From a bacterium (GTDB lineage: Bacteria; UBP7; UBA6624), in the NCBI GenBank assembly GCA_002716355.1, contig PBAU01000004.1, positions 1-21,236 of the forward strand: a stretch of 21,236 nt of DNA, in the 5' to 3' direction. Below are positions 2,678 through 21,236 of the stretch, in pieces. Position 1 is the stretch's first letter; each line of letters begins with the position of its first letter. The translations under genes and the position numbers were made by a program. The notes under the pieces were generated by a model. The model had not been told where the DNA came from and did not search any database. It saw only the letters and a program-made list of their open reading frames with translations.

Positions 2678-3463
2678 ATGAAAAAATATGTTGTAGCAGG
2701 TTTAGGTGAAATTGGAACTCCAATATCCAAATTATTATCTAAAAAACACAATGTAATTGGTTATGATAAAAATCCTAAATTAATGAATATAAATAAATTT
2801 AATAAATCTGAATCAATACCAACTTCCTTTTTGCACATAGCAATTCCAGTCAATAAAAATTTTGATTCAAATATTTTAAAACTGAATAAAAAATTTCTAC
2901 CTGAATGTATTGTGATTCATAGTACTATTAGCCCTGGAACTACTCAAAGAATTCAAAAAAAATTATCGATCCCATTAATTTTTAGTGCAACTAGGGGTGT
3001 TCATAAAAGAATGTTAAAAGATCTTCAAAGATATACCAAATTCTTTGCAATATCATCATCTGCTCCAAGAAAACAATGGGCAATTAAAGAATTTAAAAAA
3101 CAAATGAAAAATTGTGGAATAAAAACTAAACAAATGTCAAAACCTGAAGCTTTAGAATTAGGCAAAATTATTTGTGATACTTCTTATTTGGGTTGGTTGA
3201 TAAATTACTCACAAATCAGTAATACAATTGCTAAATCTTATGGAGTTGATTATGATGAAATGTGGGAATTTTCTGATGAAATTCACAAAATTCTAGGAAA
3301 TCGTCCTAAATTATATCCTGGTTTCATAGGTGGTCACTGTGTGATTCCTAATCTAGAATTAATTCACAATGAAACTCTTGATATAATAAATTCTCTAAAT
3401 AATTCATATCTAAAAAAAGTAAAAAATGCAAAATCCATAAATAAAAAATATCTAAAAAAGTGA
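2678..3463 (+). CDS. Short NAD(P)-binding Rossmann protein resembling the N-terminal and central parts of the UDP-glucose/GDP-mannose dehydrogenase family (no C-terminal sugar-nucleotide domain)
   Basis: 261-aa ORF with ATG at 2678. GxGxxG at the extreme N-terminus (VVAGLGEIGTPI). HSTISPGTT resembles the ESTV(P)PGTT family motif (compare ESTIEPGF in the 84-1454 product). GFIGGHCVIPN resembles the catalytic GGxC(L/I)P motif. The gene call is solid; the function is tentative. Confidence 0.5.
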   Translation: MKKYVVAGLGEIGTPISKLLSKKHNVIGYDKNPKLMNINKFNKSESIPTSFLHIAIPVNKNFDSNILKLNKKFLPECIVIHSTISPGTTQRIQKKLSIPLIFSATRGVHKRMLKDLQRYTKFFAISSSAPRKQWAIKEFKKQMKNCGIKTKQMSKPEALELGKIICDTSYLGWLINYSQISNTIAKSYGVDYDEMWEFSDEIHKILGNRPKLYPGFIGGHCVIPNLELIHNETLDIINSLNNSYLKKVKNAKSINKKYLKK

Positions 3464-6657: not shown

Positions 6658-7647
6658 TCATTTTGATGGACTTTTGTAATACCAACGTTTGAAAGGTGCA
6701 GAAAATTCTACTTTATTTTTCATAGCCCACTCATATGTGAGTTCCAACCCTTTTTCCATTGAAATTTTTGGTTTCCATTTGAGAATTTTTTTTGCTTTTG
6801 AATTATTACAGTTTAATCTCTGTACGTCATATGGTCTCATTCTACTTTCATCAACTTTAATTTTAATATCTGAGCCTGAAATTTTAATAAGATTTTTTGC
6901 TATATCTGACATCTTAATTTCATTACAACTACCAACATTCAAAATTTCTCCAATTGCACTTTTAGTTTGCGATGCTTTTAGAAATGCCTCTACGGTATCA
7001 GAAACAAAAGTGAAATCTCTTGTCGAATTTACGTTTCCAAGGTGTAACTCTTTATTTCCATTTTTAATCTGACTAATTATTTCTGGAATGATATAAGGTT
7101 CAGTAAATCTTGGACCATATGTATTAAATGGCCTAATCACAATTCCTGGGAATCCATTTTCTTTGTGTAACGTAAAAGTTGCTCTATCTGCAGATAATTT
7201 ACTCACAGCATATGTTGAATATGGTGCTGTTGGATGATTTTCATCCATTGGATGATATTGTGCAGAACCGTAAACTTCACTAGTTGAAATTTGAACAAAT
7301 GCTTCTGCCGTTTTTGATTTAACTGATGACCATGCAACATTCAGGCTTCCTATTGTGTTAACATGAAAGAAATCTACTGGGTAATAATATGAATCTGGTA
7401 TAAAGGGCAATGCAGCAAGATTAAAAATAATTTCTTGATCTTTTACGGTTTTTGCAACAATTTTTTCATCAGTAATATCACCCTTTACAATCTTTATTTT
7501 ATGTTTTGATATGTAATGTCTCTTTCCAGATGAAAAATTATCTAAAACTGTAACTTTTGCACCATGTTTGACTAACTGTGAAACAACTTCGGAACCAATA
7601 AAGCCTGCTCCTCCTGTAACTAATACTCTCTTATCTTTTAATTTCAT
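6658..7647 (-). CDS. Extended SDR NAD-dependent epimerase/dehydratase; motif signature closest to UDP-glucuronate decarboxylase (UXS/ArnA C-terminal) or NDP-hexose 4,6-dehydratase types
   Basis: 329-aa ORF with ATG at 7645-7647. VLVTGGAGFIGSEVV Rossmann motif. STSEVYG (UXS/ArnA-like; RmlB types usually have STDEVYG). YAVSK catalytic YxxxK. RPFNTYGPR. Lies 4 nt downstream of the preceding SDR gene, so they form an operon. Confidence 0.85.
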   Translation of the reverse strand: MKLKDKRVLVTGGAGFIGSEVVSQLVKHGAKVTVLDNFSSGKRHYISKHKIKIVKGDITDEKIVAKTVKDQEIIFNLAALPFIPDSYYYPVDFFHVNTIGSLNVAWSSVKSKTAEAFVQISTSEVYGSAQYHPMDENHPTAPYSTYAVSKLSADRATFTLHKENGFPGIVIRPFNTYGPRFTEPYIIPEIISQIKNGNKELHLGNVNSTRDFTFVSDTVEAFLKASQTKSAIGEILNVGSCNEIKMSDIAKNLIKISGSDIKIKVDESRMRPYDVQRLNCNNSKAKKILKWKPKISMEKGLELTYEWAMKNKVEFSAPFKRWYYKSPSK

Positions 7648-7651
7648 TTTT

Positions 7652-8608
7652 TTACATTCCTAACCTATGTTTATACCAATTAATTGTTTTTTCAATTCCT
7701 ATATCTAAAGATGTTTCTGCTTTAAACCCAATTTTTTCTTCAGCTTTTTTATTTGACAATACTCTACGTTTTTGACCTGATGGTTTATCCATATCGAATT
7801 TTATCTCAGGATCTGTATTGGTAATACTTAGAATTTTTCTTGCTAATTCATCTATAGAAACAAATTCTCCACTAGCTAGATTAATCGGATCTCCAACACA
7901 ATAATTTTCCATTGCAAGTAACATTCCTTTAGCCGCATCTTTTGCATAGATATATTCTCTAATCGGACTACCGTCCCCCCAAATTACAAAAGGATCCATT
8001 TTCTTAATTGCTTTCATTATTAGAGAGCCTAACGCATGTGCTGTTTCAAGATCATCACTATCTCTAGGACCATAAGAATTTGATGGTCTAACAATTGCTA
8101 TGTCCATCCCATATTCTTTGTGAAATGCTATTGCTTGTCTCTCTCCCATACGTTTTGACCATGAATATGATGCATGTGCTTCTGGTGGATTTCCTTTCCA
8201 TGCATCTCCTTCTTCGAGAGTTTTCTCATCATTTGGATAAATACAAGTACAACTCGCATAAAGAAATTTTTCAATTTTTTCATTTTTTGCACTTTCTAAA
8301 ATATTCCCATCCATGATGAGATTAGGGGTGAGTGTACTGGCAGGATGAGTGCTGGTTCTACCTAAGCCGCCTGTATATGCTGCTAAATGAAAAATATAAT
8401 CCATATCCTTCACTACATTATCTGAGAATTTCCTATCAGTCAAATCTCCCCGCATAATATCTAATTCTAATTTCTTTAATTCATCTGGAATCTCTCTTTC
8501 ATGTTCAATAATTCTGACATTTGCTCCTTTTTCTACTAGTAGTTCCACCAAATGAGAACCAATCATACCGGTTCCTCCTGTAACAAGAATTTTTTTATCA
8601 GAATACAT
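7652..8608 (-). CDS. Extended SDR NAD-dependent epimerase/reductase (GDP-mannose 3,5-epimerase / GDP-fucose-synthase-like signature)
   Basis: 318-aa ORF with ATG at 8606-8608. ILVTGGTGMIGSHLV. ASCTCIYP (SSxCIYP-type motif of 3,5-epimerase/4-reductase enzymes). YSWSK catalytic YxxxK. VRPSNSYGPRD. One nt separates it from the aminotransferase stop. Confidence 0.8.
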   Translation of the reverse strand: MYSDKKILVTGGTGMIGSHLVELLVEKGANVRIIEHEREIPDELKKLELDIMRGDLTDRKFSDNVVKDMDYIFHLAAYTGGLGRTSTHPASTLTPNLIMDGNILESAKNEKIEKFLYASCTCIYPNDEKTLEEGDAWKGNPPEAHASYSWSKRMGERQAIAFHKEYGMDIAIVRPSNSYGPRDSDDLETAHALGSLIMKAIKKMDPFVIWGDGSPIREYIYAKDAAKGMLLAMENYCVGDPINLASGEFVSIDELARKILSITNTDPEIKFDMDKPSGQKRRVLSNKKAEEKIGFKAETSLDIGIEKTINWYKHRLGM

Positions 8609-8609
8609 C

Positions 8610-9716
8610 TTAATCTATAACCAATTTTCTAATAATATCTGTAATGTAGTCTTGTTCTTCTTCTGTCATCTTCAAAAATATTGGTAATCCTAACACTCTT
8701 TCTGAAATATCTTCGCATATTGGAAGCATTCCATTTGAAAAATTATATAATTTTTTATAAATTGGTTGTAAATGTAATGGAGGAAAATTTATTCTTGTTT
8801 CTACTCCATTGTTTTCTAATCCTATTCTAATTTTTTCTCTTAATTTATTATTTTTAAACAGAATTACGTATAACATGAATGTGTGTTTATTATAATTACG
8901 AATCGTTGGCGTAATAATTTCTGAAATTCCTTCCAATTTTTTATTATAATAGTCTGCTAATTGGTTTTTCTTATCTAATATTTCATCTATTCTTTTTAAT
9001 TGAGAAATACCTAGTGCTGCATTAGGATCAGGCATTTTTGCATTCCATCCTATTTCAACATGATGATATCTTCTATCTGCACCGTTTTTTCTTAAAATTT
9101 TACATTTTTCGGCTAATTCATTATCGTTTGTTACAATTAATCCTCCTTCTCCTGTATTCAGATTTTTATCTGGCCCAAATGAGAATCCGGTCATTGTACT
9201 AATTGAACCAACTTTTTTATTTTTATGAACTCCACCTAATGCAGGTGCTGCATCTTCAATTACCGCTAACCCATGTTTTTCGGCTATTTCATTAATCTCT
9301 AAAATCTCTGCGCTCTGTCCACCATAATCAATTGGCATTATTGCTTTTGTTTTTTCTGTTATTACCGCTTCAATCTTTTTTGGATCTAAGTTGAATGTAT
9401 CTGGTTCAATGTCCACAAATATTGGGTGTGCATTTCTTTGAATTATTACATTAGATGTTGCAGCAAACGTAAATGGAGTTGTAATTACTTCATCTCCATT
9501 TCCTATACCTAGTGCGTCTAATGATAAAAGCATAGATGATGTCCCAGAATTTACTGCAATAGCATTTTTTACACCCATATAGTCTGCCATTTTTTCTTCA
9601 AATTCCGTCACAATTGGACCTGGACCCAAATGATTCGTAATTACGGCATCATACATTGCCTGAGCATCTTCTTCTAAAACATTTGGTTGAGCCACCCTAA
9701 TCTTAAATTCAGCCAA
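8610..9716 (-). CDS. PLP-dependent nucleotide-sugar aminotransferase (DegT/DnrJ/EryC1/StrS family)
   Basis: Family features: AQPNVLEEDAQAMYDAV N-terminus, NSGTSSMLLSL, ITTPFTFAATSN, VIEDAAPALG, and FSFGPDKNLNTGEGG carrying the Schiff-base Lys. The ORF track starts at a TTG at 9761. I prefer the in-frame TTG at 9714-9716 (MAEFKIRVAQPN...). It gives a family-typical N-terminus and lies about 29 nt downstream of a TATA-like box. The start is uncertain (9716 vs 9761). Confidence 0.85.
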   Translation of the reverse strand: MAEFKIRVAQPNVLEEDAQAMYDAVITNHLGPGPIVTEFEEKMADYMGVKNAIAVNSGTSSMLLSLDALGIGNGDEVITTPFTFAATSNVIIQRNAHPIFVDIEPDTFNLDPKKIEAVITEKTKAIMPIDYGGQSAEILEINEIAEKHGLAVIEDAAPALGGVHKNKKVGSISTMTGFSFGPDKNLNTGEGGLIVTNDNELAEKCKILRKNGADRRYHHVEIGWNAKMPDPNAALGISQLKRIDEILDKKNQLADYYNKKLEGISEIITPTIRNYNKHTFMLYVILFKNNKLREKIRIGLENNGVETRINFPPLHLQPIYKKLYNFSNGMLPICEDISERVLGLPIFLKMTEEEQDYITDIIRKLVID

Positions 9717-9737
9717 AACTATGTTTTTTAGACTCGT

Positions 9738-9750
9738 TTTGTATAATAAC
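9738..9750 (-). promoter_or_regulatory. Candidate archaeal TATA box for the aminotransferase-SDR-SDR operon
   Basis: The minus strand reads GTTATTATACAAA, centred about 29 nt upstream of the TTG at 9716. The geometry fits a leaderless or short-leader archaeal promoter. By eye only. Confidence 0.3.
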
Positions 9751-9790
9751 TGTACGAACAATTTGTACCGTTTGTGAACAGTAGTAACGA

Positions 9791-12946: not shown

Positions 12947-14938
12947 TTATATTCCCATTGTTGAATGTGTTGATTCAAAACTTTTTCCATCATTTTTATC
13001 TGAATTTCTGTCAACACGTGTATTGTCTATTCTTAGATTTTCAGGGTGACATTTGTAATCACGTGAACGTCTACCATACCAGATTGTTTTATAGCCCCAT
13101 TTTATGGGGTCCGTCTCGTCAATTGGATTTTTATAATTATATGTGGTCTTTTTTCCTATTAAACTAGAATTTTCTTCAGTGAAAAACTTTTTCCAATCAA
13201 ACTCAAAATCTGAAGTTTTTATTTCATCATTATAATCTCGCGTAGTAAGAATGAAAACCTGAAATTTAGCTAAATCTCTTAGTACATTTTCTGACTCGTT
13301 TAATCCACATTCTTTATCAACATAAGTAAGTAAATTAAAAATTGCATCTTGCAGTACATCTTTATCTCTTGTTAATCGTAACCAACTTGCTTCTTCAATT
13401 GGCCAAATTATATCTCCTAGATCTGCATCGTGATGATCCCATCCCTTTCCTGAATATCCATTATCTCTAAATTCAATGACTTTGTTTAATTCATCATTTA
13501 AAATTGAATCAGATTTTCGTGCATATTCTAAAAATTTTTCATAGAATGTAACAAATTGTAAATTATGTGTTTTATTAAAATAACTTGTAACATATTCTAA
13601 AATTCCGAGACTTTGTAATGTTAAAAATGACCACGAATAAAGATAAATTTCTTTTAATTCATCTAAAGAACACATATTATTTTCTGTAGCCAGATATTCA
13701 AATTCTTGAATCCCTCTATTATGAATTGAAGAATGAACTAACATTATTGGGGATTTCACCAATTTTATTCCATATTTTTCTCTGTATTCTGGAACATTCA
13801 TTGGTGCATTTGGCAGAACACTACAATGATAAATAAAAACTGTATCGATTTTTGTATGTGCAATATTTTCTAATCCTTGTTTAAATGTCTCTAGCGTTTC
13901 ACCTGGAAGTCCCATAATTAATTCAGTATATGTTGGAATATTATTTTCCCTAAACGTTGCTGTTAATTCTCCAAATGAATCAAATTTAATATTTGCTCGT
14001 TTCATAATGTTTAATGTATTAGTATCAAGTGATTGTACAGCTAGAGTAACTGCACCTAATACTCCACCTTCTTGTAACTCTTTTGCAATTGGAATGATTC
14101 TATCTGATGAATTCTTTGCCCATGCTGGTCTAATTCTTTCTGGAAAATGTTTTTTTAATGCAACCTCTTTTAATTTTTGTGCAATTTTAAAATCTCTTTC
14201 TTGAAAAATTCCGAAATTTGCATCACAACAATCTATGTATGGTATTTTATTATCGCCAAACCACTCGATTTCTTGAAATAATTTTGATTCTTCCCATTTT
14301 CTAACTCTGCTTTTTGTTGCACTTCCCCAGTCACAAAATGTACATTGATATGGACAACCTCTATTAGTTTCCCACGAAGAAATCCATTTTATTCCATCTA
14401 TTTTATCAACTAGTTCCCAAACTGTATTTGTTAAATATGGTGATGGTAGTTCATCTAAGTTACTAATTCTTTCTTGTGGCGCTGTTCTGAAATCTTTTGT
14501 TTCTATACCTTTAATTTGTGAATAATTTTTGTCTTTCAAATATGCAATAAGAATTTCTTCAAATACATATTCTCCTTCACCGTGGACAATTATATCCACA
14601 AAAGGATTTTCTTTAAAAAAATCTGGAGATAAATCTGGTATCTGTGGTCCGCCAAAAATTATAGTACATTCTGGATTTATCTTTTTTATTTCTCGTGCAA
14701 GATATGTTGTAATTTCCCAATTCCAAACATAACAAGAACAAAGCAAAATATCACTATTCTTACATTCTTGAATGTAATCCTCAACCTTATTTCTAAATAC
14801 AAAACTTTTCTCAAAACTAAAATTTGATGCTAATTCAGGTTTAGACTTGATATATGCTACAAGGGTTGCTATACTATATGGAAAATGAATCTGATCTCCA
14901 TATTGATAATTAAATTGTGAACTGTTAACTTTTATCAT
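12947..14938 (-). CDS. Class B (B12-binding domain) radical SAM enzyme with long C-terminal extension
   Basis: 663-aa ORF with ATG at 14936-14938. N-terminal cobalamin-binding-like Rossmann region (DILLCSCYVWNW...TIIFGGPQIPD...IIVHGEGEYVFEEIL). Radical SAM cluster motif NRGCPYQCTFCDWG, with Cys195/199/202 codons at 14354-14356, 14342-14344 and 14333-14335. I do not recognise the roughly 250 residues after the TIM-barrel core. Confidence 0.85.
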   Translation of the reverse strand: MIKVNSSQFNYQYGDQIHFPYSIATLVAYIKSKPELASNFSFEKSFVFRNKVEDYIQECKNSDILLCSCYVWNWEITTYLAREIKKINPECTIIFGGPQIPDLSPDFFKENPFVDIIVHGEGEYVFEEILIAYLKDKNYSQIKGIETKDFRTAPQERISNLDELPSPYLTNTVWELVDKIDGIKWISSWETNRGCPYQCTFCDWGSATKSRVRKWEESKLFQEIEWFGDNKIPYIDCCDANFGIFQERDFKIAQKLKEVALKKHFPERIRPAWAKNSSDRIIPIAKELQEGGVLGAVTLAVQSLDTNTLNIMKRANIKFDSFGELTATFRENNIPTYTELIMGLPGETLETFKQGLENIAHTKIDTVFIYHCSVLPNAPMNVPEYREKYGIKLVKSPIMLVHSSIHNRGIQEFEYLATENNMCSLDELKEIYLYSWSFLTLQSLGILEYVTSYFNKTHNLQFVTFYEKFLEYARKSDSILNDELNKVIEFRDNGYSGKGWDHHDADLGDIIWPIEEASWLRLTRDKDVLQDAIFNLLTYVDKECGLNESENVLRDLAKFQVFILTTRDYNDEIKTSDFEFDWKKFFTEENSSLIGKKTTYNYKNPIDETDPIKWGYKTIWYGRRSRDYKCHPENLRIDNTRVDRNSDKNDGKSFESTHSTMGI

Positions 14939-16672: not shown

Positions 16673-18145
16673 CTAAAATTCAAAGTAAATAAATTCCTCT
16701 GCACTTCCTCTGTAAAATAAAACTACTAAAAGCATGATGATAGTCAAGAAAATTAACCAATGTTTTACTTGTAATGATGAAATTCTTTCACTCACATTTT
16801 TAATTTTTAATGTAATAATTTGTAATATAAGAAAAATAGGAATTAGTATCACTGCAAATTCATTTTGTTGGATAAAATTAATTGTACCATCTATCTCGAA
16901 ATCCCAAATCAAATATTTCTTCATTGAATAAACCATCTCATCAACATCTCTTACTCTAAACGAGATAAATGCAAAAAATATTAAAAACTGTGTTATTAGA
17001 ATACTAGTTATTTTTCCAATTTTTGTTTTAAAGAATTTATTCTTACTAAAATTTGGGAATTGTTTTCTAACCAAAGTATCTACTGCAACATAGATTCCAT
17101 GAATTATACCAAAAATTATAAAATTCCATCCTGCACCATGCCATAAACCTAGTAAAAAGAATGACGTAAATAAACTAGAGAATAATCTTTGTGACGATTT
17201 CCTATTTTTAAAAATTAATGGAAAATAAAGATAATCTCTAACCCATGTTGACAGGCTAATGTGCCATCTTCTCCAAAAATCTGATGGAGATGTAGAAAAA
17301 AATGGTTTTCTAAAATTCGGTGGAACATTTATTCCAATTATTAGTGCTGCTCCAATTGCTATGTCAGAGTATCCTGAAAAGTCTCCATATACTTGAAAAC
17401 CAAATCCAATTGTACCTAAAATAATTGTAAATGACTCATGTCCTATTGGACTATTGAATACATTATCTACCATTGGAGCAATATTATCTGCAAAAAATAA
17501 TTTTTTTAGAAAACCAATTGCCATCATTGTGATTCCTAATTTTAAATTCCTATTATTGATGAAAAATTGTTTTAGTTTAATTTGTGATTTAAGATTTGAA
17601 ATTTTTTCATTTAGTTGCGGTAAAAAATCACTTGCACGTAATATTGGTCCAGCAACTAAGGTCGGAAAAAATGCTACAAATAATCCATATTGTAAAATAG
17701 ATCGGGTTGGTTTTAATGAACCCCTGTAAATATCAATTATATAACTAATTGACTGGAAAGTATAGAATGAAATTCCTATAGGTAAAATTAAATTCAAAAA
17801 TGGGATCTCTGTAAATCCTAAAACTCCAAAAAGTTCATTAATTTGTGAAATTGCAAAGTCTGTGTATTTAAAAAAACCAAGTAAACCTAAACTTCCGCCT
17901 ATTCCAATACCTAACAGAATTTTTCTATTCTTAGGATCTGTTGATTCTGCTATCTTTTTACCTATGAAGTAATGCAAAATTGTTGTATAAACTAATAATA
18001 AAACTAAGTAGCTATCTGAAAAGTATAGAAAGAAAAAACTAGCAACTACTAATAGCGTATGTTGGAATTTTCGATTTTTATAACACACTATAGCTGTTAA
18101 AACAGCTATAAAGAATACGATGAACTCTACCGTTGTAAATAGCAT
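16673..18145 (-). CDS. MBOAT family membrane-bound O-acyltransferase (AlgI/DltB/PatA-like)
   Basis: 490-aa polytopic ORF with ATG at 18143-18145. Both family histidine motifs are present: DFWRRWHISLSTWVRDYLYFPL (His295, nt 17261-17263) and LLGLWHGAGWNF (His336, nt 17138-17140). Also ISFYTFQSISYIIDIYRG and FFPTLVAGPI, typical of AlgI/DltB. Confidence 0.9.
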   Translation of the reverse strand: MLFTTVEFIVFFIAVLTAIVCYKNRKFQHTLLVVASFFFLYFSDSYLVLLLVYTTILHYFIGKKIAESTDPKNRKILLGIGIGGSLGLLGFFKYTDFAISQINELFGVLGFTEIPFLNLILPIGISFYTFQSISYIIDIYRGSLKPTRSILQYGLFVAFFPTLVAGPILRASDFLPQLNEKISNLKSQIKLKQFFINNRNLKLGITMMAIGFLKKLFFADNIAPMVDNVFNSPIGHESFTIILGTIGFGFQVYGDFSGYSDIAIGAALIIGINVPPNFRKPFFSTSPSDFWRRWHISLSTWVRDYLYFPLIFKNRKSSQRLFSSLFTSFFLLGLWHGAGWNFIIFGIIHGIYVAVDTLVRKQFPNFSKNKFFKTKIGKITSILITQFLIFFAFISFRVRDVDEMVYSMKKYLIWDFEIDGTINFIQQNEFAVILIPIFLILQIITLKIKNVSERISSLQVKHWLIFLTIIMLLVVLFYRGSAEEFIYFEF

Positions 18146-19104
18146 TATTCTTTTAACTCCTTAATCATCCATTCTTTGATATCATCTGTGTAGATCTGTG
18201 CATTTCTATTAATTGCAACATGATATGGGTCACTCCAAATCTCATTCTCAGCATATTTGTCGTGTAAATATAATATGTCAATATCAAATCTCTGAGAAAT
18301 ATTATCTATTATTTTCTCAAAATTCTCAATCTCACTCTGTTTCACATGTTCAAAAACTAATTCATTGTAAGGTGGTGTGAAAATCAAAACTTTAATTCCA
18401 TTTGATTGAAATGTTTCAATAATTTTGTTTACAGCTAAAAATTCACTGTTTTCAATATCATTATCAATTCCTCTGAATCCTACACCTTCTCCGTAAATAG
18501 ATTTAATCTCATCTTGAGAAAGAATATTGTTTTCTCTGTAATTCATAAATGGATGAGTTGGATAATCTGGTCCTCTCAAAATATATTTGATTGATTGTAT
18601 CATTCTATCTTTTGGTGAAGTTGGAAATTTTTCAGAAAAATCTAAATTAAATATTGAGGATAAGAAATTTACAAAAAATTTGTCAGGCTCTACGATATTT
18701 CCAAATAACCCTCTATTGAAAAACTCACTTCTATAATCTCTTGATTTCTCAAAATCTGTCATACTTATTCCATAAATAATGACTTTTGGTTCTAGTTCTA
18801 CTAAGTGCATCATACTATTCACTCTTCTAGTAGGTGTATCGCTCATATCTGCTAAATTATAAATCTCATAGTCTAATTGATTCATTATCAATTCATCTGA
18901 AATTCTATCCACATCTATTGAATAGACATTACTGGCACCTATGAAAAAAATTGATTCTTTTTTAATGATCTCTTTCTCTGAAAAAATACCATTCCATTCT
19001 GGATCATAAATGTGAAGATATAGATCCATAAATAAATAAAATATTCCACCTGTAAAACAAAATGCAACAAGTAATGCTAAAAGAATTTTAAAATTCAAAT
19101 CCAT
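18145..19104 (-). CDS. Membrane-anchored extracytoplasmic partner of the MBOAT; DltD/AlgJ-like SGNH-type acyl-transfer protein (tentative)
   Basis: 319-aa ORF with ATG at 19102-19104. Single N-terminal TM (ILLALLVAFCFTGGIFYLF). FFIGASNVY (Ser58) near the N-terminus and WSDPYHVA (Asp292-x-x-His295) near the C-terminus match SGNH block I and block V spacing. Its stop overlaps the MBOAT start by 1 nt (TAATG at 18143-18147). A GAGG lies about 8 nt upstream of the ATG. Confidence 0.55.
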   Translation of the reverse strand: MDLNFKILLALLVAFCFTGGIFYLFMDLYLHIYDPEWNGIFSEKEIIKKESIFFIGASNVYSIDVDRISDELIMNQLDYEIYNLADMSDTPTRRVNSMMHLVELEPKVIIYGISMTDFEKSRDYRSEFFNRGLFGNIVEPDKFFVNFLSSIFNLDFSEKFPTSPKDRMIQSIKYILRGPDYPTHPFMNYRENNILSQDEIKSIYGEGVGFRGIDNDIENSEFLAVNKIIETFQSNGIKVLIFTPPYNELVFEHVKQSEIENFEKIIDNISQRFDIDILYLHDKYAENEIWSDPYHVAINRNAQIYTDDIKEWMIKELKE

Positions 19105-19117
19105 TTAGGCCTCTATT

Positions 19118-20002
19118 TTATTTATTATTTTCACGAACAACATTAACTAAACTATATAGTAAAATTGCAGATATGAGAAATATCACTGCAATTAAAATTG
19201 TACCTGCAGCAACTACTGTCAAATTAGTATTTAATCTACCAATTTCTGCATAATACTGTATTGAAAAATATGTAAAAGCTATTCCTACAATGAAAAATAT
19301 TACTGATGGTATCCCATAGAATTTTAATGGATGTTCAATAGATGTATATTTTATTGTACTAAAGATCACTGATGAACCATGCGTTACAGGATTCTGTGTA
19401 GATGTATCTCCTTCATACAAAATTTTAATTGGAACTTCTGAAATTTTAAAATTCTTGCTACTTGCTTTAATTAAAATTTCAGTTGATATTCCCATACCTA
19501 ACTCAGATGGATTTAATTCATCAACAACTTGTTTTGAATAAGCTCTAAACCCACTTTGTGAATCAGTTAATTTCTCTTTTATACTTGCGTTTGTTATCTT
19601 TGTAATTACTTTAATTCCAACTCTTCTATAATTGGGTACTTCTTTCTCACTATCATCTAAAAATCTTGAACCTACAACTAAATCAGCATCTTGATTATTT
19701 ATTGGTTCTATAACTTTTTGAACATCTTCGATTCTATGTTGTCCATCAGCATCAAATGTTACTAAAATATCACCTTCGATATTTTTAGCCTTTGTAAAAA
19801 TACTTCTAATTGCTCCGCCATACCCTAAATTTTTTTCATGGTTAACCACTATTGCTCCCATTTTTTCAGCTATCTGTGATGTCAAATCCGTTGAACCATC
19901 ATTGCACACTATCACCTTATCTGCAATTTTTGATAATTTTGTAATGATTGTTGCAATGTTTTTTTCTTCATTAAATGCCGGAATTCCTACAATTATCTTC
20001 AA
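19118..20002 (-). CDS. GT2 polyprenyl(dolichyl)-phosphate sugar synthase type glycosyltransferase (GtrB/ArnC/DPM1-like) with two C-terminal TM helices
   Basis: 294-aa ORF. TTG at 20000-20002 gives a canonical MKIIVGIPAFNEEKNI N-terminus. VIVCNDGSTDLT, FDADGQH (DxD) and GFRAY motifs. Two C-terminal TM helices (GIPSVIFFIVGIAFTYFSI; VVAAGTILIAVIFLISAILLYSL), as in GtrB/ArnC-type enzymes. Confidence 0.85.
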   Translation of the reverse strand: MKIIVGIPAFNEEKNIATIITKLSKIADKVIVCNDGSTDLTSQIAEKMGAIVVNHEKNLGYGGAIRSIFTKAKNIEGDILVTFDADGQHRIEDVQKVIEPINNQDADLVVGSRFLDDSEKEVPNYRRVGIKVITKITNASIKEKLTDSQSGFRAYSKQVVDELNPSELGMGISTEILIKASSKNFKISEVPIKILYEGDTSTQNPVTHGSSVIFSTIKYTSIEHPLKFYGIPSVIFFIVGIAFTYFSIQYYAEIGRLNTNLTVVAAGTILIAVIFLISAILLYSLVNVVRENNK

Positions 20003-20107
20003 TTTTTAACCTTGTGACTGATTTCAAATTTTAGCCTATAAAATATACTACTCAAAGTTTTTCTGTTTTTTTGAAATTTTTATGATATATTCATTCATTT
20101 GAATAGA

Positions 20108-20120
20108 AAATATAATTAAA
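20108..20120 (+). promoter_or_regulatory. Candidate TATA box for the 2,3-dehydratase/oxidoreductase unit
   Basis: AAATATAATTAAA, centred about 27 nt upstream of the GTG at 20141. It lies in the 138-nt divergent intergenic region shared with the GT2 gene. The minus strand has TAAAATTT and TATATTTTATAGG about 27 and 39 nt upstream of 20002. Confidence 0.3.
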
Positions 20121-20140
20121 GAACCTGTTGAAGATTTCTC

Positions 20141-20890
20141 GTGTTAGTTGATGAAATTAAAGCAATATTGGAAAAAAATGATTATGAGCTAGATCCTGAT
20201 GGAATATCACGAATTCAAACCATGTTAGAATCAATAAGGGATGATAATCAAATAAACAAACTTGACTTCATAATTAACTGGTTTAATAAAAAACGTGAAG
20301 AATCTGATATGGTTGTTGAAGAAATTGGAATTAAAGAATTAGATAAATGGAATGTTGATCATAATTCAGGAAATATTTTTCATGAATCGGGAGGATTCTT
20401 TAGAATCATAGGAATCAAAGCTTCAAATACATTTGATCGTGAAGTTGGCAAGAAAGGATGGACTCAACCAATGATTGCAAAAAACCCTGGAGGGATATTA
20501 GGAATTATCATGAAAAGAATCAATGGCATTCCTCATTATCTTCTACAAGCAAAGGCAGAACCTGGTAACATTGGAAAATTACAATTATCTCCAACACTTC
20601 AAGCAACAACAAGTAATTTGTTAAAAGCTCATGGTGGCGCAAAACCATTATTTGCAGAATATTTTAATGAAGAAAATAATCCAAAAATCATCTATGCAAA
20701 ATGGCAATCAGAAGATGGTGGTAGATTTCATTTAAAATCAAATTATAATATGATTGTAGAAGTAAAAAGTGATGAAGAATTAGAAATTCCAGATTCATTC
20801 ATTTGGGTTACATTATATCAGATAAAACAATTAATGAAGATTGAAAATGTTGTTGGACCACATGTAAGAGGAATTATTTCTTATCTGTGA
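20141..20890 (+). CDS. NDP-hexose 2,3-dehydratase family protein (Hexose_dehydrat / EvaA-like), single-domain half-size form
   Basis: 249-aa ORF with GTG at 20141. Strong family pattern: GGFFRIIGIKA...REV..KGWTQPMI...GGILGII...GIPHYLLQAKAEPGNIGKLQLSPTLQATTSNLLKAHGG..PLFAEYF...WQSEDGGRFHLKSNYNMIVEV...IPDSFIWVTLYQIKQLM...NVVGPHVRGIISYL. Only one such domain is present; characterised enzymes carry two. Confidence 0.8.
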   Translation: MLVDEIKAILEKNDYELDPDGISRIQTMLESIRDDNQINKLDFIINWFNKKREESDMVVEEIGIKELDKWNVDHNSGNIFHESGGFFRIIGIKASNTFDREVGKKGWTQPMIAKNPGGILGIIMKRINGIPHYLLQAKAEPGNIGKLQLSPTLQATTSNLLKAHGGAKPLFAEYFNEENNPKIIYAKWQSEDGGRFHLKSNYNMIVEVKSDEELEIPDSFIWVTLYQIKQLMKIENVVGPHVRGIISYL

Positions 20891-20893
20891 AAA

Positions 20894-21236
20894 ATGAATC
20901 CTCTAAAATTTGGTATTATTGGTTGTTCCCGAATTGCAAAACGTTCAGTAATTCCTGCTATCATAAAATCAGAATTTGCAGAACTTGAAATAATTGGTAG
21001 TCGTTCAACAGACAAAGCAAAAGAATTTGCTAGTGAGTTTAACTGTGAAAAATTTGGTACTTATGAAGATGTCATATCCGATGACTCAGTTGATGCCGTA
21101 TACATCTCAACTCCAATTGGTACCCATGAAGAATGGTCAATCAAAGCATCAGAGGCAGGTAAGCATGTTTACGTTGAAAAATCTAGTGCAGTAAATTTTG
21201 ATTCAGCGCAAAAAATGGTTGAATCTGCAAAAGAAA
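20894..21236 (+). CDS. Gfo/Idh/MocA family NAD(P)-dependent oxidoreductase (candidate NDP-hexose 3-ketoreductase), 3'-truncated by the window edge
   Basis: Not in the ORF track because no stop is reached. ATG at 20894, 4 nt after the dehydratase stop. My own translation: MNPLKFGIIGCSRIAKRSVIPAIIKSEFAELEIIGSRSTDKAKEFASEFNCEKFGTYEDVISDDSVDAVYISTPIGTHEEWSIKASEAGKHVYVEKSSAVNFDSAQKMVESAKE. Family motifs GIIGCSRIA, VDAVYISTP..HEEW and AGKHVYVEK(P/S). Confidence 0.8.
   Translation, partial: MNPLKFGIIGCSRIAKRSVIPAIIKSEFAELEIIGSRSTDKAKEFASEFNCEKFGTYEDVISDDSVDAVYISTPIGTHEEWSIKASEAGKHVYVEKSSAVNFDSAQKMVESAKE

What the first reader, a model, noticed from the sequence alone, without database searches (positions are those of the whole stretch)
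20141..21236. Half-size (single-domain) NDP-hexose 2,3-dehydratase coupled to a Gfo/Idh/MocA reductase: 2-deoxysugar chemistry in an archaeal-looking glycan locus
Seen: the 249-aa product carries one complete Hexose_dehydrat-type domain (QAKAEPGN...LSPTLQATTSN...SEDGGRF...). Four nt later a Gfo/Idh/MocA oxidoreductase starts (GIIGCSRIA...AGKHVYVEK) and runs off the window. Established: EvaA/TylX3/OleV-type 2,3-dehydratases act on NDP-4-keto-6-deoxyhexose. They are about 450-500 aa with two tandem Nudix-like domains. KijD10/TylC1-class 3-ketoreductases then give NDP-4-keto-2,6-dideoxyhexoses. A DegT-family C-3 aminotransferase (EvaB-type) instead gives 3-amino-2,3,6-trideoxy sugars. This chemistry is best known from actinomycete antibiotic pathways. 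Inference: here it would feed a 2,6-dideoxy or amino-trideoxy sugar into a surface glycan, with a minimal dehydratase that presumably homodimerises to mimic the two-domain enzyme. Candidate 4,6-dehydratase (6658-7647), aminotransferase (8610-9716) and epimerase/reductase (7652-8608) genes lie in the same window. No sugar-1-phosphate nucleotidyltransferase is visible, though it may lie beyond the 3' edge.
Basis: partly seen in the sequence, partly recalled or inferred. Interest (0 to 1): 0.65.

Follow-up and report, generated by a model that had tools for sequence, protein, structure and literature searches.

The report
Half-size sugar 2,3-dehydratase in marine archaea
A very abundant group of marine ammonia-oxidising archaea carries a working, half-length version of the enzyme that removes the 2-hydroxyl from activated sugars, joined to its usual reductase partner, which points to 2-deoxy sugars in an archaeal surface glycan and to a probable relic of the enzyme's single-domain ancestor.

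Summary
ORF 20141-20890 (+) encodes a 249-aa protein with one complete PF03559 NDP-hexose 2,3-dehydratase domain (E 3.6e-64). Three bases later a Gfo/Idh/MocA gene starts and runs off the window. The contig is from Ca. Nitrosopelagicus (marine Nitrososphaerota).

The short length is real:
- the 120 closest protein clusters are all 248-249 aa;
- dN/dS is 0.06-0.16;
- a conserved BRE/TATA-like box lies 19-38 nt upstream of the start.

The domain resembles the catalytic N-domain of EvaA and keeps both catalytic glutamates (E140, E191). The AF2 model (pLDDT 92) matches EvaA. The full-length partner in sister strains is most similar to KijD10, the sugar 3-ketoreductase.

Single-domain homologues also occur in bacteria (Microbacterium, Pseudomonadales) and in Woesearchaeota. 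All five with readable context have a Gfo/Idh/MocA gene within two genes; in four it is adjacent or overlapping.

New here: single-domain proteins combine the N-domain catalytic motifs with an RE(V)..WxQP motif. That motif is otherwise restricted to the "vestigial" C-domain (120/122 C, 3/122 N, 110/110 single).

This fits a symmetric homodimer that retains the ancestral full motif set, but the dimer is inferred, not shown. The nucleotide carrier, the 4,6-dehydratase and the final sugar are unresolved. I rate it a new variant of a known kind, of moderate interest.

The parts
20103..20122 (+). Conserved BRE/TATA-like promoter element (gAATAGAAAATATAATTAAAg), 19-38 nt upstream of the start codon. 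It implies a leaderless or near-leaderless mRNA.
   Evidence: The core GAAAAT.TAATTA is invariant in 7 loci from Nitrosopelagicus to Nitrosopumilus, while the rest of the intergenic region diverges. Promoter function is inferred from position and composition only.
20141..20890 (+). Single-domain (half-size) NDP-hexose 2,3-dehydratase gene, 249 aa, GTG start, TGA stop.
   Evidence: One full PF03559 domain, E 3.6e-64. Best solved relative is the EvaA N-domain. AF2 pLDDT 92.3 and Foldseek top hit EvaA with TMq 0.78. dN/dS 0.06-0.16 against 9 orthologues.
20438..20446 (+). Codons R100-E101-V102. This is the RE(V)..WxQP motif, otherwise typical of the C-terminal domain of two-domain enzymes.
   Evidence: The motif is present in 120/122 C-domains, 3/122 N-domains, 8/8 single-domain cluster representatives and 102/102 further single-domain proteins. 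R100 and E101 are invariant in alignment A1.
20558..20560 (+). Codon E140, the equivalent of EvaA catalytic Glu139 (motif QAKAE-PGN).
   Evidence: Alignment to 4J7G. Invariant in A1 and A2. Loss of activity on E139 mutation is cited from PMC8987622.
20711..20713 (+). Codon E191, the equivalent of EvaA catalytic Glu190 (motif SEDGGRF).
   Evidence: Alignment to 4J7G. Invariant in A1 and A2. Role cited from PMC8987622.
20894..21236 (+). 5' part (114 codons) of a Gfo/Idh/MocA oxidoreductase, a KijD10-like NDP-sugar 3-ketoreductase candidate. It is translationally coupled (3-nt spacer) and cut by the window end. K96 (21179-21181) is the equivalent of KijD10 Lys102.
   Evidence: PF01408, E 9.7e-22. 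81% identical to the 342-aa L012 orthologue and 111/114 identical (my count by eye) to the 337-aa L026 orthologue. The orthologues' best solved relative is KijD10 3RBV, E 5.5e-49 to 2.6e-50 over the full length.
19118..20002 (-). Divergently transcribed family-2 glycosyltransferase, a conserved neighbour of the pair in Nitrosopumilales loci.
   Evidence: PF00535, E 1.7e-26. The same neighbour is found in L001, L007 and L012-L017. Use of the 2-deoxy sugar by this transferase is not shown.

Best explanation
The ORF is a functional single-domain member of the EvaA/TylX3/OleV family of NDP-hexose 2,3-dehydratases.

Proposed chemistry: acting on an NDP-4-keto-6-deoxyhexose, it removes the C-2 hydroxyl to give the unstable NDP-3,4-diketo-2,6-dideoxyhexose. 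The co-translated KijD10-like Gfo/Idh/MocA reductase immediately reduces this at C-3 to NDP-4-keto-2,6-dideoxyhexose. That intermediate is then probably aminated by the conserved convergent DegT enzyme, or reduced, and transferred into a surface glycan of a marine ammonia-oxidising archaeon.

Proposed architecture: two-domain enzymes carry one active pocket (N-domain catalytic residues) and a degenerate C-domain. The single-domain protein carries both the N-type catalytic residues and the C-type RE(V)..WxQP motif. It most likely works as a symmetric homodimer in which each subunit plays both roles, giving two equivalent active sites. This would be the pre-duplication state of the family.

Shown: domain identity, fixed length, purifying selection, retained catalytic residues, EvaA-like predicted fold, conserved pairing with a Gfo/Idh/MocA gene, and the hybrid motif pattern.

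Inferred: the substrate, the product, the homodimer, and any contribution of the RE motif in trans.
For: - Domain and fold: single full-length PF03559 hit. The EvaA N-domain aligns better than the C-domain, 139.5 vs 86.4 bits and 221 vs 139 bits with the family profile. E140 and E191 align to EvaA E139 and E190, whose mutation abolishes activity. The AF2 model has pLDDT 92.3; Foldseek gives EvaA at E 2.4e-18, then homodimeric Nudix NDP-sugar hydrolases (NUDT5, YffH, ADPRase).
- Real gene of fixed length: the 120 nearest clusters are 248-249 aa. dN/dS is 0.06-0.16. A promoter-like box is conserved.
- Partner: the full-length orthologues' best solved relative is the KijD10 sugar 3-ketoreductase (E about 1e-49; next best 1e-36). 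The equivalents of KijD10 Lys102 and Tyr186 are kept.
- Pairing conserved in distant lineages: L018 and L019/L020 have overlapping genes, in either order. In L022/L023 the Gfo gene follows after an 8-nt spacer. In L021 the Gfo gene lies two genes away on the opposite strand. L022 also has rmlA, rmlC, an rmlD-like gene and SDR dehydratase-like genes.
- Hybrid signature: N-only conserved residues are kept (K138, P141, N143, Q148, A155, T156, S158, N159, H164, G166, K199). The C-only motif RE..WxQP is also present: 120/122 C, 3/122 N, 8/8 and 102/102 single-domain proteins.
Against: - No enzyme assay and no oligomer model were possible; the structure tool is monomer-only and returns no coordinates.
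- I could not read the primary EvaA paper or measure where EvaA R315/E316 lie relative to pocket A. The RE motif could therefore be purely structural, or belong to the domain's own pocket.
- No unambiguous sugar-1-phosphate nucleotidyltransferase or hexose 4,6-dehydratase is tied to the pair in the archaeal loci. The window SDR at 6658-7647 is below every NCBIfam cut-off. L001 has a PseB/CapD-type enzyme. The NTP_transferases of L012 are atypical.
- The phylogeny does not resolve whether single-domain proteins are basal or nested among N-domains: N monophyly has 1-2% bootstrap support.
- No 2-deoxy sugar has been reported from Nitrososphaerota glycans in the papers I could search.
Confidence: 0.65

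Rival explanations
1. The chemistry is the same (2,3-dehydration followed by C-3 reduction), but the single domain is self-sufficient. It acts as a monomer, or in a complex with the Gfo reductase. The RE(V)..WxQP motif is a structural or cis element with no role across a dimer interface.
For: The AF2 monomer is confidently folded without a partner (pLDDT 92, pTM 0.88). The tight gene coupling with Gfo would also fit a dehydratase-reductase complex that channels the labile diketo intermediate.
Against: The closest non-EvaA structural relatives (NUDT5, YffH, ADPRase) are, from general knowledge, obligate homodimers with shared active sites. Near-total conservation of RE in the 'vestigial' C-domain (120/122) against loss in N (3/122) is hard to explain if the motif acts only in cis. 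The loop that carries RE has the lowest confidence in the model, about 84-85.
Confidence: 0.2
2. The pair does not perform 2-deoxygenation. The Gfo enzyme would be a WbpB/WlbA-like NDP-sugar 3-dehydrogenase feeding the neighbouring DegT aminotransferase and hexapeptide acetyltransferase (a 3-acetamido sugar pathway). The single PF03559 domain would have a different role, such as NDP-sugar binding, hydrolysis or isomerisation.
For: The Nitrosopumilales loci contain DegT, a hexapeptide acyltransferase and a deacetylase next to the pair. The Gfo orthologue also hits the archaeal UDP-GlcNAc 3-dehydrogenase model weakly: 77.5 bits against a cut-off of 450.
Against: KijD10 scores 170-175 bits, against about 48 bits for entry 3Q2K, which I recall to be WlbA. 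The single-domain/Gfo association persists in loci that lack DegT and hexapeptide genes, and one of these is a classical rmlA/rmlC/rmlD-type dTDP-sugar locus. All EvaA catalytic and N-domain signature residues are under strict conservation.
Confidence: 0.1
3. The short ORF is a truncated remnant, a frameshift or an assembly artefact of a normal two-domain gene.
For: Nothing beyond the unusual length. Some database hits of 326-396 aa are N-terminally truncated fragments of two-domain proteins.
Against: The same length is found in the 120 nearest clusters from many samples and single-cell genomes. dN/dS is 0.06-0.16. The flanks are occupied by a conserved promoter box and by the Gfo gene. The same architecture is found in cultured bacteria.
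Confidence: 0.02

Closest known systems
EvaA (Amycolatopsis orientalis, PDB 4J7G/4J7H) and the TylX3/OleV/KijB1/SpnO class of dTDP-4-keto-6-deoxyglucose 2,3-dehydratases
   Same: Same Pfam family (PF03559) and the same predicted Nudix-like fold (TMq 0.78). About 35% identity to the EvaA N-domain. Both catalytic glutamates and the K-x-E-P-G-N / P-T-x-Q-A-T-x-S-N / H-G-G motifs are kept. The gene is coupled to a Gfo/Idh/MocA 3-ketoreductase as in oleV-oleW and kijB1/kijD10.
   Different: One domain of 249 aa instead of two tandem domains in about 450-500 aa. It carries the RE(V)..WxQP motif that two-domain enzymes keep only in their C-domain. It lies in a cell-surface glycan locus of an archaeon rather than an actinomycete antibiotic cluster. 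The nucleotide carrier is unknown.
KijD10 (Actinomadura kijaniata, PDB 3RBV), dTDP-3,4-diketo-2,6-dideoxyglucose C-3 ketoreductase
   Same: It is the best solved relative of the full-length partner (E about 1e-49, end-to-end alignment). Both belong to the Gfo/Idh/MocA family. The catalytic Lys (E-K motif) and the Tyr186 equivalent are retained.
   Different: The alignment is full length but the two proteins are clearly divergent; I did not compute a percent identity. Only 114 of about 337-342 codons lie in the window. Cofactor preference and the stereochemistry of reduction (axial or equatorial 3-OH) cannot be inferred.
Homodimeric Nudix NDP-sugar hydrolases (E. coli GDP-mannose hydrolase YffH/NudK, human NUDT5, ADP-ribose pyrophosphatases)
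   Same: They are the next-best structural matches after EvaA (Foldseek E about 1e-4). Each is a single Nudix-type domain of about 190-250 aa. From general knowledge, they work as homodimers in which each active site uses residues of both subunits, which is the architecture proposed here.
   Different: There is no sequence-level similarity: no PF00293 hit and no Nudix box, and only 9-13% identity in the structural alignments. Those enzymes hydrolyse the diphosphate or glycosidic bond with metal ions. They do not dehydrate the sugar.
Uncharacterised single-domain PF03559 proteins of bacteria and other archaea (for example 'NDP-hexose 2,3-dehydratase family protein' of Microbacterium spp., 247 aa; Pseudomonadales MAG; Ca. 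Woesearchaeota)
   Same: Same length class (241-267 aa), 42-51% identity, and the same full motif set (102/102 with RE..WxQP and KxEPG). A Gfo/Idh/MocA gene lies nearby in all five readable contexts, adjacent or overlapping in four. All are in polysaccharide loci.
   Different: The organisms differ. The thaumarchaeal proteins have a two-residue insertion in the motif (REVGKKGW vs REVxxW). None has been studied experimentally, as far as the searchable literature shows.

Membership tests
NDP-hexose 2,3-dehydratase (PF03559; EvaA/TylX3/OleV type) | Significant full-length match to the Hexose_dehydrat profile | tested here: met
   216.4 bits against a cut-off of 25; E 3.6e-64; profile positions 4-203 of 203.
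NDP-hexose 2,3-dehydratase (PF03559; EvaA/TylX3/OleV type) | Two tandem Nudix-like domains in one chain of about 450-500 aa | tested here: not met
   One domain in 249 aa. Both flanks are occupied. The length is conserved. Of the 150 listed cluster representatives, nearly all are two-domain proteins of 400-510 aa and only 7 are full-length single-domain proteins of 248-264 aa.
NDP-hexose 2,3-dehydratase (PF03559; EvaA/TylX3/OleV type) | Catalytic glutamates of pocket A (EvaA Glu139 and Glu190) | tested here: met
   E140 and E191 align to them. Both are invariant in A1 and A2. Their role is cited from PMC8987622.
NDP-hexose 2,3-dehydratase (PF03559; EvaA/TylX3/OleV type) | EvaA-like alpha/beta/alpha Nudix-type fold | tested here: met
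   AF2 pLDDT 92.3. Foldseek against 4J7G: E 2.4e-18, TMq 0.78, rmsd 2.6 over 228 columns. This is a predicted model, not an experimental structure.
NDP-hexose 2,3-dehydratase (PF03559; EvaA/TylX3/OleV type) | Genomic coupling to an enzyme that consumes the 3,4-diketo product (a Gfo/Idh/MocA 3-ketoreductase or a C-3 aminotransferase) | tested here: met
   3-nt spacer to a KijD10-like Gfo gene. A Gfo/Idh/MocA gene lies within two genes in 5 of 5 distant single-domain loci with readable flanks, adjacent or overlapping in 4.
NDP-hexose 2,3-dehydratase (PF03559; EvaA/TylX3/OleV type) | Catalyses C-2 deoxygenation of an NDP-4-keto-6-deoxyhexose | not testable with these tools
   This needs an enzyme assay.
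KijD10/TylC1/OleW-type NDP-sugar 3-ketoreductase (Gfo/Idh/MocA) | Gfo/Idh/MocA Rossmann domain plus C-terminal alpha/beta domain | tested here: met
   The N-domain lies in the window. Both domains are present in the orthologues from L001 and L012 and in the 337-aa orthologue of the near-identical strain L026.
KijD10/TylC1/OleW-type NDP-sugar 3-ketoreductase (Gfo/Idh/MocA) | Closer to characterised sugar 3-ketoreductases than to other Gfo/Idh/MocA enzymes, with the catalytic Lys retained | tested here: met
   KijD10 is the top PDB hit at 170-175 bits; the next hit has 129 bits. The E-K motif is present (window K96). Lys102 as the catalytic acid is cited from PMC11167396. No NCBIfam equivalog exists for this function, and all NCBIfam hits are far below their cut-offs.
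KijD10/TylC1/OleW-type NDP-sugar 3-ketoreductase (Gfo/Idh/MocA) | NAD(P)H-dependent reduction of the C-3 keto group of an NDP-3,4-diketo-2,6-dideoxyhexose | not testable with these tools
   This needs a coupled enzyme assay.
Canonical Nudix hydrolase (PF00293) | Nudix box GX5EX7REUXEEXGU and a PF00293 profile match | tested here: not met
   No PF00293 hit at E up to 1. The family profile finds no Nudix protein in the PDB by sequence. Similarity exists at fold level only.

The most novel reading that the evidence does not exclude
The single-domain proteins are living representatives of the pre-duplication ancestor of all sugar 2,3-dehydratases. They would be symmetric homodimers in which each active site is built from the catalytic residues of one chain and the RE(V)..WxQP loop of the other. 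The two-domain antibiotic-pathway enzymes would then be a fused pseudo-dimer in which one site decayed: N lost RE and C lost the pocket residues. In addition, one of the most abundant archaeal groups in the ocean would use this enzyme to place a 2,6-dideoxy sugar, or a 4-amino/acetamido-2,4,6-trideoxy sugar, on its surface. As far as I could find, that would be the first 2-deoxygenated hexose reported in an archaeal glycan.
Probability: 0.35. Interest if true: 0.6.

Novelty: new variant of a known kind. Interest (0 to 1): 0.45.

Why it matters
- Enzyme evolution: sugar 2,3-dehydratases have been understood from a single structure, EvaA. In EvaA one of two duplicated domains is called a vestige. 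A widespread half-size clade that keeps the conserved motifs of both halves offers a simple system to test what the 'vestigial' domain contributes and how the fused enzyme evolved.
- Engineering: a minimal 249-aa dehydratase with its reductase could be a useful building block for engineered deoxysugar pathways.
- Ecology: the gene pair is common in Nitrosopelagicus/Nitrosopumilus populations in ocean metagenomes. It sits in a variable surface-glycan island of the kind generally linked to phage and grazer interactions. It therefore predicts an unreported class of sugar on the envelope of major marine nitrifiers, which can be tested by glycan analysis.

Tried and rejected
- Primary EvaA paper (PubMed 23473392): not held. 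Pocket composition had to be taken from the review PMC8987622.
- Sequence search of the family profile against the PDB at E up to 10, to align the RE motif to a Nudix box: only EvaA and two chance hits.
- Literature searches for single-domain 2,3-dehydratases, PF03559, and archaeal or thaumarchaeal 2-deoxy sugars: nothing relevant. The Nitrososphaerota glycoproteomics paper reports no deoxy sugar, and found no N-glycan at all in Nitrosopumilus piranensis.
- Extending the window: the exact-protein look-up gave only a 2.1-kb contig. An exact 37-mer scan of metagenomes gave one 1.4-kb contig, which did recover the full Gfo gene and the convergent DegT end.
- Cluster-member look-up for names and accessions: uninformative.
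- Chimera hypothesis (front of a C-domain joined to the core of an N-domain): rejected. Every segment is at least as N-like as C-like. Identity in the core, residues 113-170, is 51% to N against 29% to C.
- Pseudogene or truncation: rejected.
- Phylogenetic rooting: NJ with bootstrap supports C versus N+S (79%) and a single-domain clade of 7 of 8 (72%). It cannot say whether that clade is basal to N-domains or nested among them.
Repeated with A2.
- Window SDR 6658-7647 as the pathway's 4,6-dehydratase: neither supported nor excluded.
Full report
**1. What is in the sequence**

ORF 20141-20890 (+) starts with GTG, stops with TGA at 20888-20890 and encodes 249 aa. Pfam finds exactly one domain, PF03559 Hexose_dehydrat. 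The match has E 3.6e-64 and 216 bits, and covers residues 44-249 and profile positions 4-203 of 203.

The next gene starts at ATG 20894, after a 3-nt spacer. It encodes the N-terminal Rossmann domain of a Gfo/Idh/MocA oxidoreductase (PF01408, E 9.7e-22) and runs off the window after 114 codons. Upstream there is a 138-nt intergenic region and a divergent family-2 glycosyltransferase gene (19118-20002, -). There is therefore no room for a second dehydratase domain.

**2. Organism and reality of the short gene**

Close relatives at 76-89% identity lie in single-cell genomes and MAGs of Ca. Nitrosopelagicus, marine group I thaumarchaeotes and Nitrosopumilus. The window has about 28% G+C. 'Archaeal-looking' is therefore correct.

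- The protein search found 1598 clusters at E <= 1e-5. The 120 listed are all 248-249 aa and 86-100% identical, mostly from Tara, ENA and JGI marine metagenomes.
- Against nine orthologues, dN/dS is 0.06-0.16 with dS of 0.7-1.1.
- A 20-nt element, AATAGAAAATATAATTAAAC (window 20103-20122), lies 19-38 nt upstream of the start. It is almost invariant from Nitrosopelagicus to Nitrosopumilus while the rest of the spacer diverges. I read it as a BRE/TATA box for a leaderless or near-leaderless mRNA; this is an inference.
- All orthologues begin at the same codon position, with ATG, GTG or TTG.

The gene is real, functional and genuinely half-size.

**3. Which half of EvaA it resembles**

The only solved homologue is EvaA (4J7G/4J7H).

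- The query aligns to the EvaA N-domain (residues 37-245) at 139.5 bits and to the C-domain at 86.4 bits. With a profile of single-domain proteins the scores are 221 and 139 bits.
- According to the review PMC8987622, pocket A of EvaA is the active site. Mutating Glu139 or Glu190 abolishes activity, whereas mutations in pocket B do not.
- These two residues align to E140 (QAKAE-PGN) and E191 (SEDGGRF) of the query. Both are invariant among single-domain proteins and among 50 N-domains.
- An AlphaFold2 model built on a 62-sequence alignment has mean pLDDT 92.3 and pTM 0.88.
- Its best PDB matches are the four EvaA chains (E 2.4e-18, TMq 0.78, rmsd 2.6 A over 228 columns). Next come NUDT5, E. 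coli GDP-mannose hydrolase YffH and ADP-ribose pyrophosphatases at E about 1e-4.

**4. The partner**

The window fragment is 81% identical to the 342-aa protein at the same position in L012. By my count it is 111/114 identical to a 337-aa protein on a 1.4-kb metagenome contig, L026, recovered with an exact 37-mer.

- For the full-length orthologues, the best solved relative is KijD10, the dTDP-3,4-diketo-2,6-dideoxyglucose 3-ketoreductase. The match has E 2.6e-50 to 5.5e-49 over the whole length; the next hit has E 1.6e-36.
- The E-K motif, which holds KijD10 Lys102, the proton donor according to PMC11167396, is kept. So is the Tyr186 equivalent; that residue's role is from my memory of the KijD10 work.
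- NCBIfam has no model for this function, and all its hits are far below their cut-offs.

**5. Conserved context**

In Nitrosopelagicus and Nitrosopumilus loci the core order is:

- GT2 (-);
- the half-size dehydratase (+) and the Gfo gene (+);
- DegT aminotransferase (-) and GT4 (-).

A polysaccharide deacetylase and a hexapeptide acyltransferase lie nearby, and in L012-L017 two NTP_transferase genes lie about 6 kb downstream. L026 shows the convergent DegT end in the strain closest to the window.

- That DegT is most similar to C-4 aminotransferases (ArnB, PseC, perosamine synthase). The C-3 enzyme QdtB also scores well, so regiochemistry is open.
- The NTP_transferases are atypical (547 aa; 359 aa with a phosphatase domain) and cannot be assigned to a sugar.
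- No clear hexose 4,6-dehydratase is tied to the pair. The window SDR at 6658-7647 is below all equivalog cut-offs, and its best PDB hits are mixed epimerases, decarboxylases and dehydratases. L001 has a PseB/CapD-type enzyme.

**6. The half-size form is a clade, not a one-off**

An exhaustive HMMER search of 50%-identity representatives found 1614 clusters at E <= 0.001. Of the best 150, nearly all are two-domain proteins of about 400-510 aa. Seven are full-length single-domain proteins of 248-264 aa, 42-51% identical to the query.

A second word-based search, seeded with one of them, listed about 100 more single-domain proteins of 241-267 aa. They include RefSeq proteins of Microbacterium spp., a Pseudomonadales MAG and a Ca. 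Woesearchaeota archaeon. Some are misnamed 'response regulator receiver protein'.

In all five such loci with readable flanks, a Gfo/Idh/MocA gene lies within two genes of the dehydratase gene:

| Locus | G+C | Arrangement |
|---|---|---|
| L018 | 71% | Gfo gene first; the two genes overlap |
| L019/L020 | 29% | dehydratase gene first; the two genes overlap |
| L021 | 56% | Gfo gene two genes away, on the opposite strand |
| L022/L023 | 71% | Gfo gene follows after an 8-nt spacer |

L022 also has rmlA, rmlC, an rmlD-like gene, SDR dehydratase-like genes, GlfT2 and an LGFP protein, so it is an actinobacterial cell-wall locus. The pairing of single-domain dehydratase and Gfo reductase is thus ancient and independent of the archaeal setting. 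It occurs in polysaccharide loci rather than antibiotic clusters.

**7. A hybrid motif pattern (new here)**

I split 122 two-domain representatives into N- and C-domains and compared column conservation.

- Single-domain proteins keep the residues that are conserved only in N-domains: K138, P141, N143, Q148, A155, T156, S158, N159, H164, G166, F175 and K199.
- They also carry the motif RE(V/I)..WxQP. It is present in 120/122 C-domains but only 3/122 N-domains. It is present in 8/8 single-domain representatives and 102/102 further single-domain proteins.
- Their SEDGGRF is also C-like: C-domains have EEGGRF and N-domains have EQGxxF.
- They are not chimeras. Every segment is at least as N-like as C-like; identity in the core, residues 113-170, is 51% to N against 29% to C.

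NJ trees put single-domain proteins with N-domains against C-domains (79% bootstrap). Seven of eight single-domain representatives form a clade (72%). Whether that clade is sister to N-domains or nested within them is unresolved.

**8. Most likely mechanism**

The shown facts fit an ordinary EvaA-type reaction. C-3 is deprotonated next to the 4-keto group and the 2-OH is eliminated. Tautomerisation then gives the 3,4-diketo-2,6-dideoxy sugar (chemistry from PMC8987622). The co-translated KijD10-like enzyme then reduces C-3 immediately (PMC11167396). From my own knowledge, the diketo intermediate is unstable, which explains the tight gene coupling.

For the architecture, I infer a symmetric homodimer.

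- The nearest single-domain structural relatives (NUDT5, YffH, ADPRase) are, from general knowledge, homodimers with active sites shared between subunits.
- The RE motif lies in the loop between the N-terminal beta-strands and the Nudix core (residues 95-106). This is the least confident part of the model, with pLDDT about 84-85.
- Strict conservation of RE in the supposedly vestigial C-domain, against its loss from N-domains, is what one expects if the C-domain supplies RE to pocket A. The N-domain's own RE, facing the dead pocket B, would then have been free to decay.
- A protein that must play both roles would need both motif sets, as observed.

This also makes the single-domain clade the best candidate for the pre-duplication state. 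I could not test this part, because I had no coordinates, no multimer prediction and no access to the primary paper.

**9. Downstream product**

If the adjacent DegT acts at C-4 and the hexapeptide protein N-acetylates, the product would be an NDP-4-acetamido-2,4,6-trideoxyhexose. If DegT acts at C-3, or belongs to another branch, a 2,6-dideoxyhexose or a 3-amino sugar is possible. This is speculation, ranked below the core claim. No deoxy sugar is reported in the one Nitrososphaerota glycoproteomics paper I found, which detected no N-glycans at all in Nitrosopumilus piranensis.

**10. Verdict**

The protein belongs to the PF03559 family by sequence, fold and catalytic residues, but it fails the family's usual two-domain architecture. 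It is a new, uncharacterised architectural variant of a known enzyme kind. Databases already annotate it automatically ('oxidase EvaA', 'NDP-hexose 2,3-dehydratase family protein'), and it is not restricted to archaea. Interest is moderate. The evolutionary and structural angle (the hybrid motif set) and the prediction of 2-deoxy sugars on abundant marine nitrifiers are both testable with simple experiments.

Noticed in passing
window 20036-20063: A second conserved intergenic block, CCTATAAAATATACTACTCAAAGTTTTT, is shared by the four closest Nitrosopelagicus loci. It is probably the TATA-containing promoter of the divergent GT2 gene (19118-20002, -).
   Followed up: partly
window 12947-14938 (-): A 663-aa B12-binding radical SAM protein. 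Its best match is the KedN5 family of methylcobalamin-dependent C-methyltransferases (292.8 bits, below the cut-off of 700). This suggests a C-methylation step in an archaeal glycan island.
   Followed up: no
window 16673-19104 (-): An MBOAT acyltransferase (490 aa) is directly followed by a DltD/DUF1574-like protein (319 aa). This looks like an O-acylation pair for a surface polymer, and it is conserved next to the dehydratase module in L012-L017.
   Followed up: no
window 2678-3463 (+): A 261-aa ORF with only weak, partial similarity to nucleotide-sugar dehydrogenases. It may be a truncated or degenerate paralogue of the complete UDP-glucose/GDP-mannose dehydrogenase-family gene at 84-1454.
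   Followed up: no
window 6658-9761 (-): A three-gene operon on the minus strand: a DegT aminotransferase (PseC/LegC-like), a GDP-fucose-synthase-like SDR and a LegB-like SDR. It looks like a self-contained amino-deoxy-sugar branch rather than part of the 2-deoxy module. All matches are below the equivalog cut-offs.
   Followed up: partly
L003 and L008 (PBOA01000030.1, PBOA01000018.1): A MAG labelled 'Chloroflexota bacterium SP196' carries two contigs with 82-86% identical copies of this thaumarchaeal gene. These are probably mis-binned marine group I contigs.
   Followed up: no
proteins P0286 and P0344: Single-domain PF03559 proteins of Microbacterium sp. CFH 90308 and of a Ca. Woesearchaeota archaeon are named 'response regulator receiver protein' in NCBI. 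This looks like a misannotation.
   Followed up: no
L012 10876-12621 (+), L007 13691-15439 (+): A 581-aa protein with copper-binding (plastocyanin-like) and glucose/sorbosone dehydrogenase (GSDH) domains is embedded in the glycan locus in several Nitrosopumilales. Its role there is unclear.
   Followed up: no
two-domain representatives: C-domains of two-domain 2,3-dehydratases retain the equivalents of both catalytic glutamates in 89-93% of cluster representatives. EvaA itself has Asp at the first position. This conservation is unexpected for a domain described as a mere remnant.
   Followed up: partly
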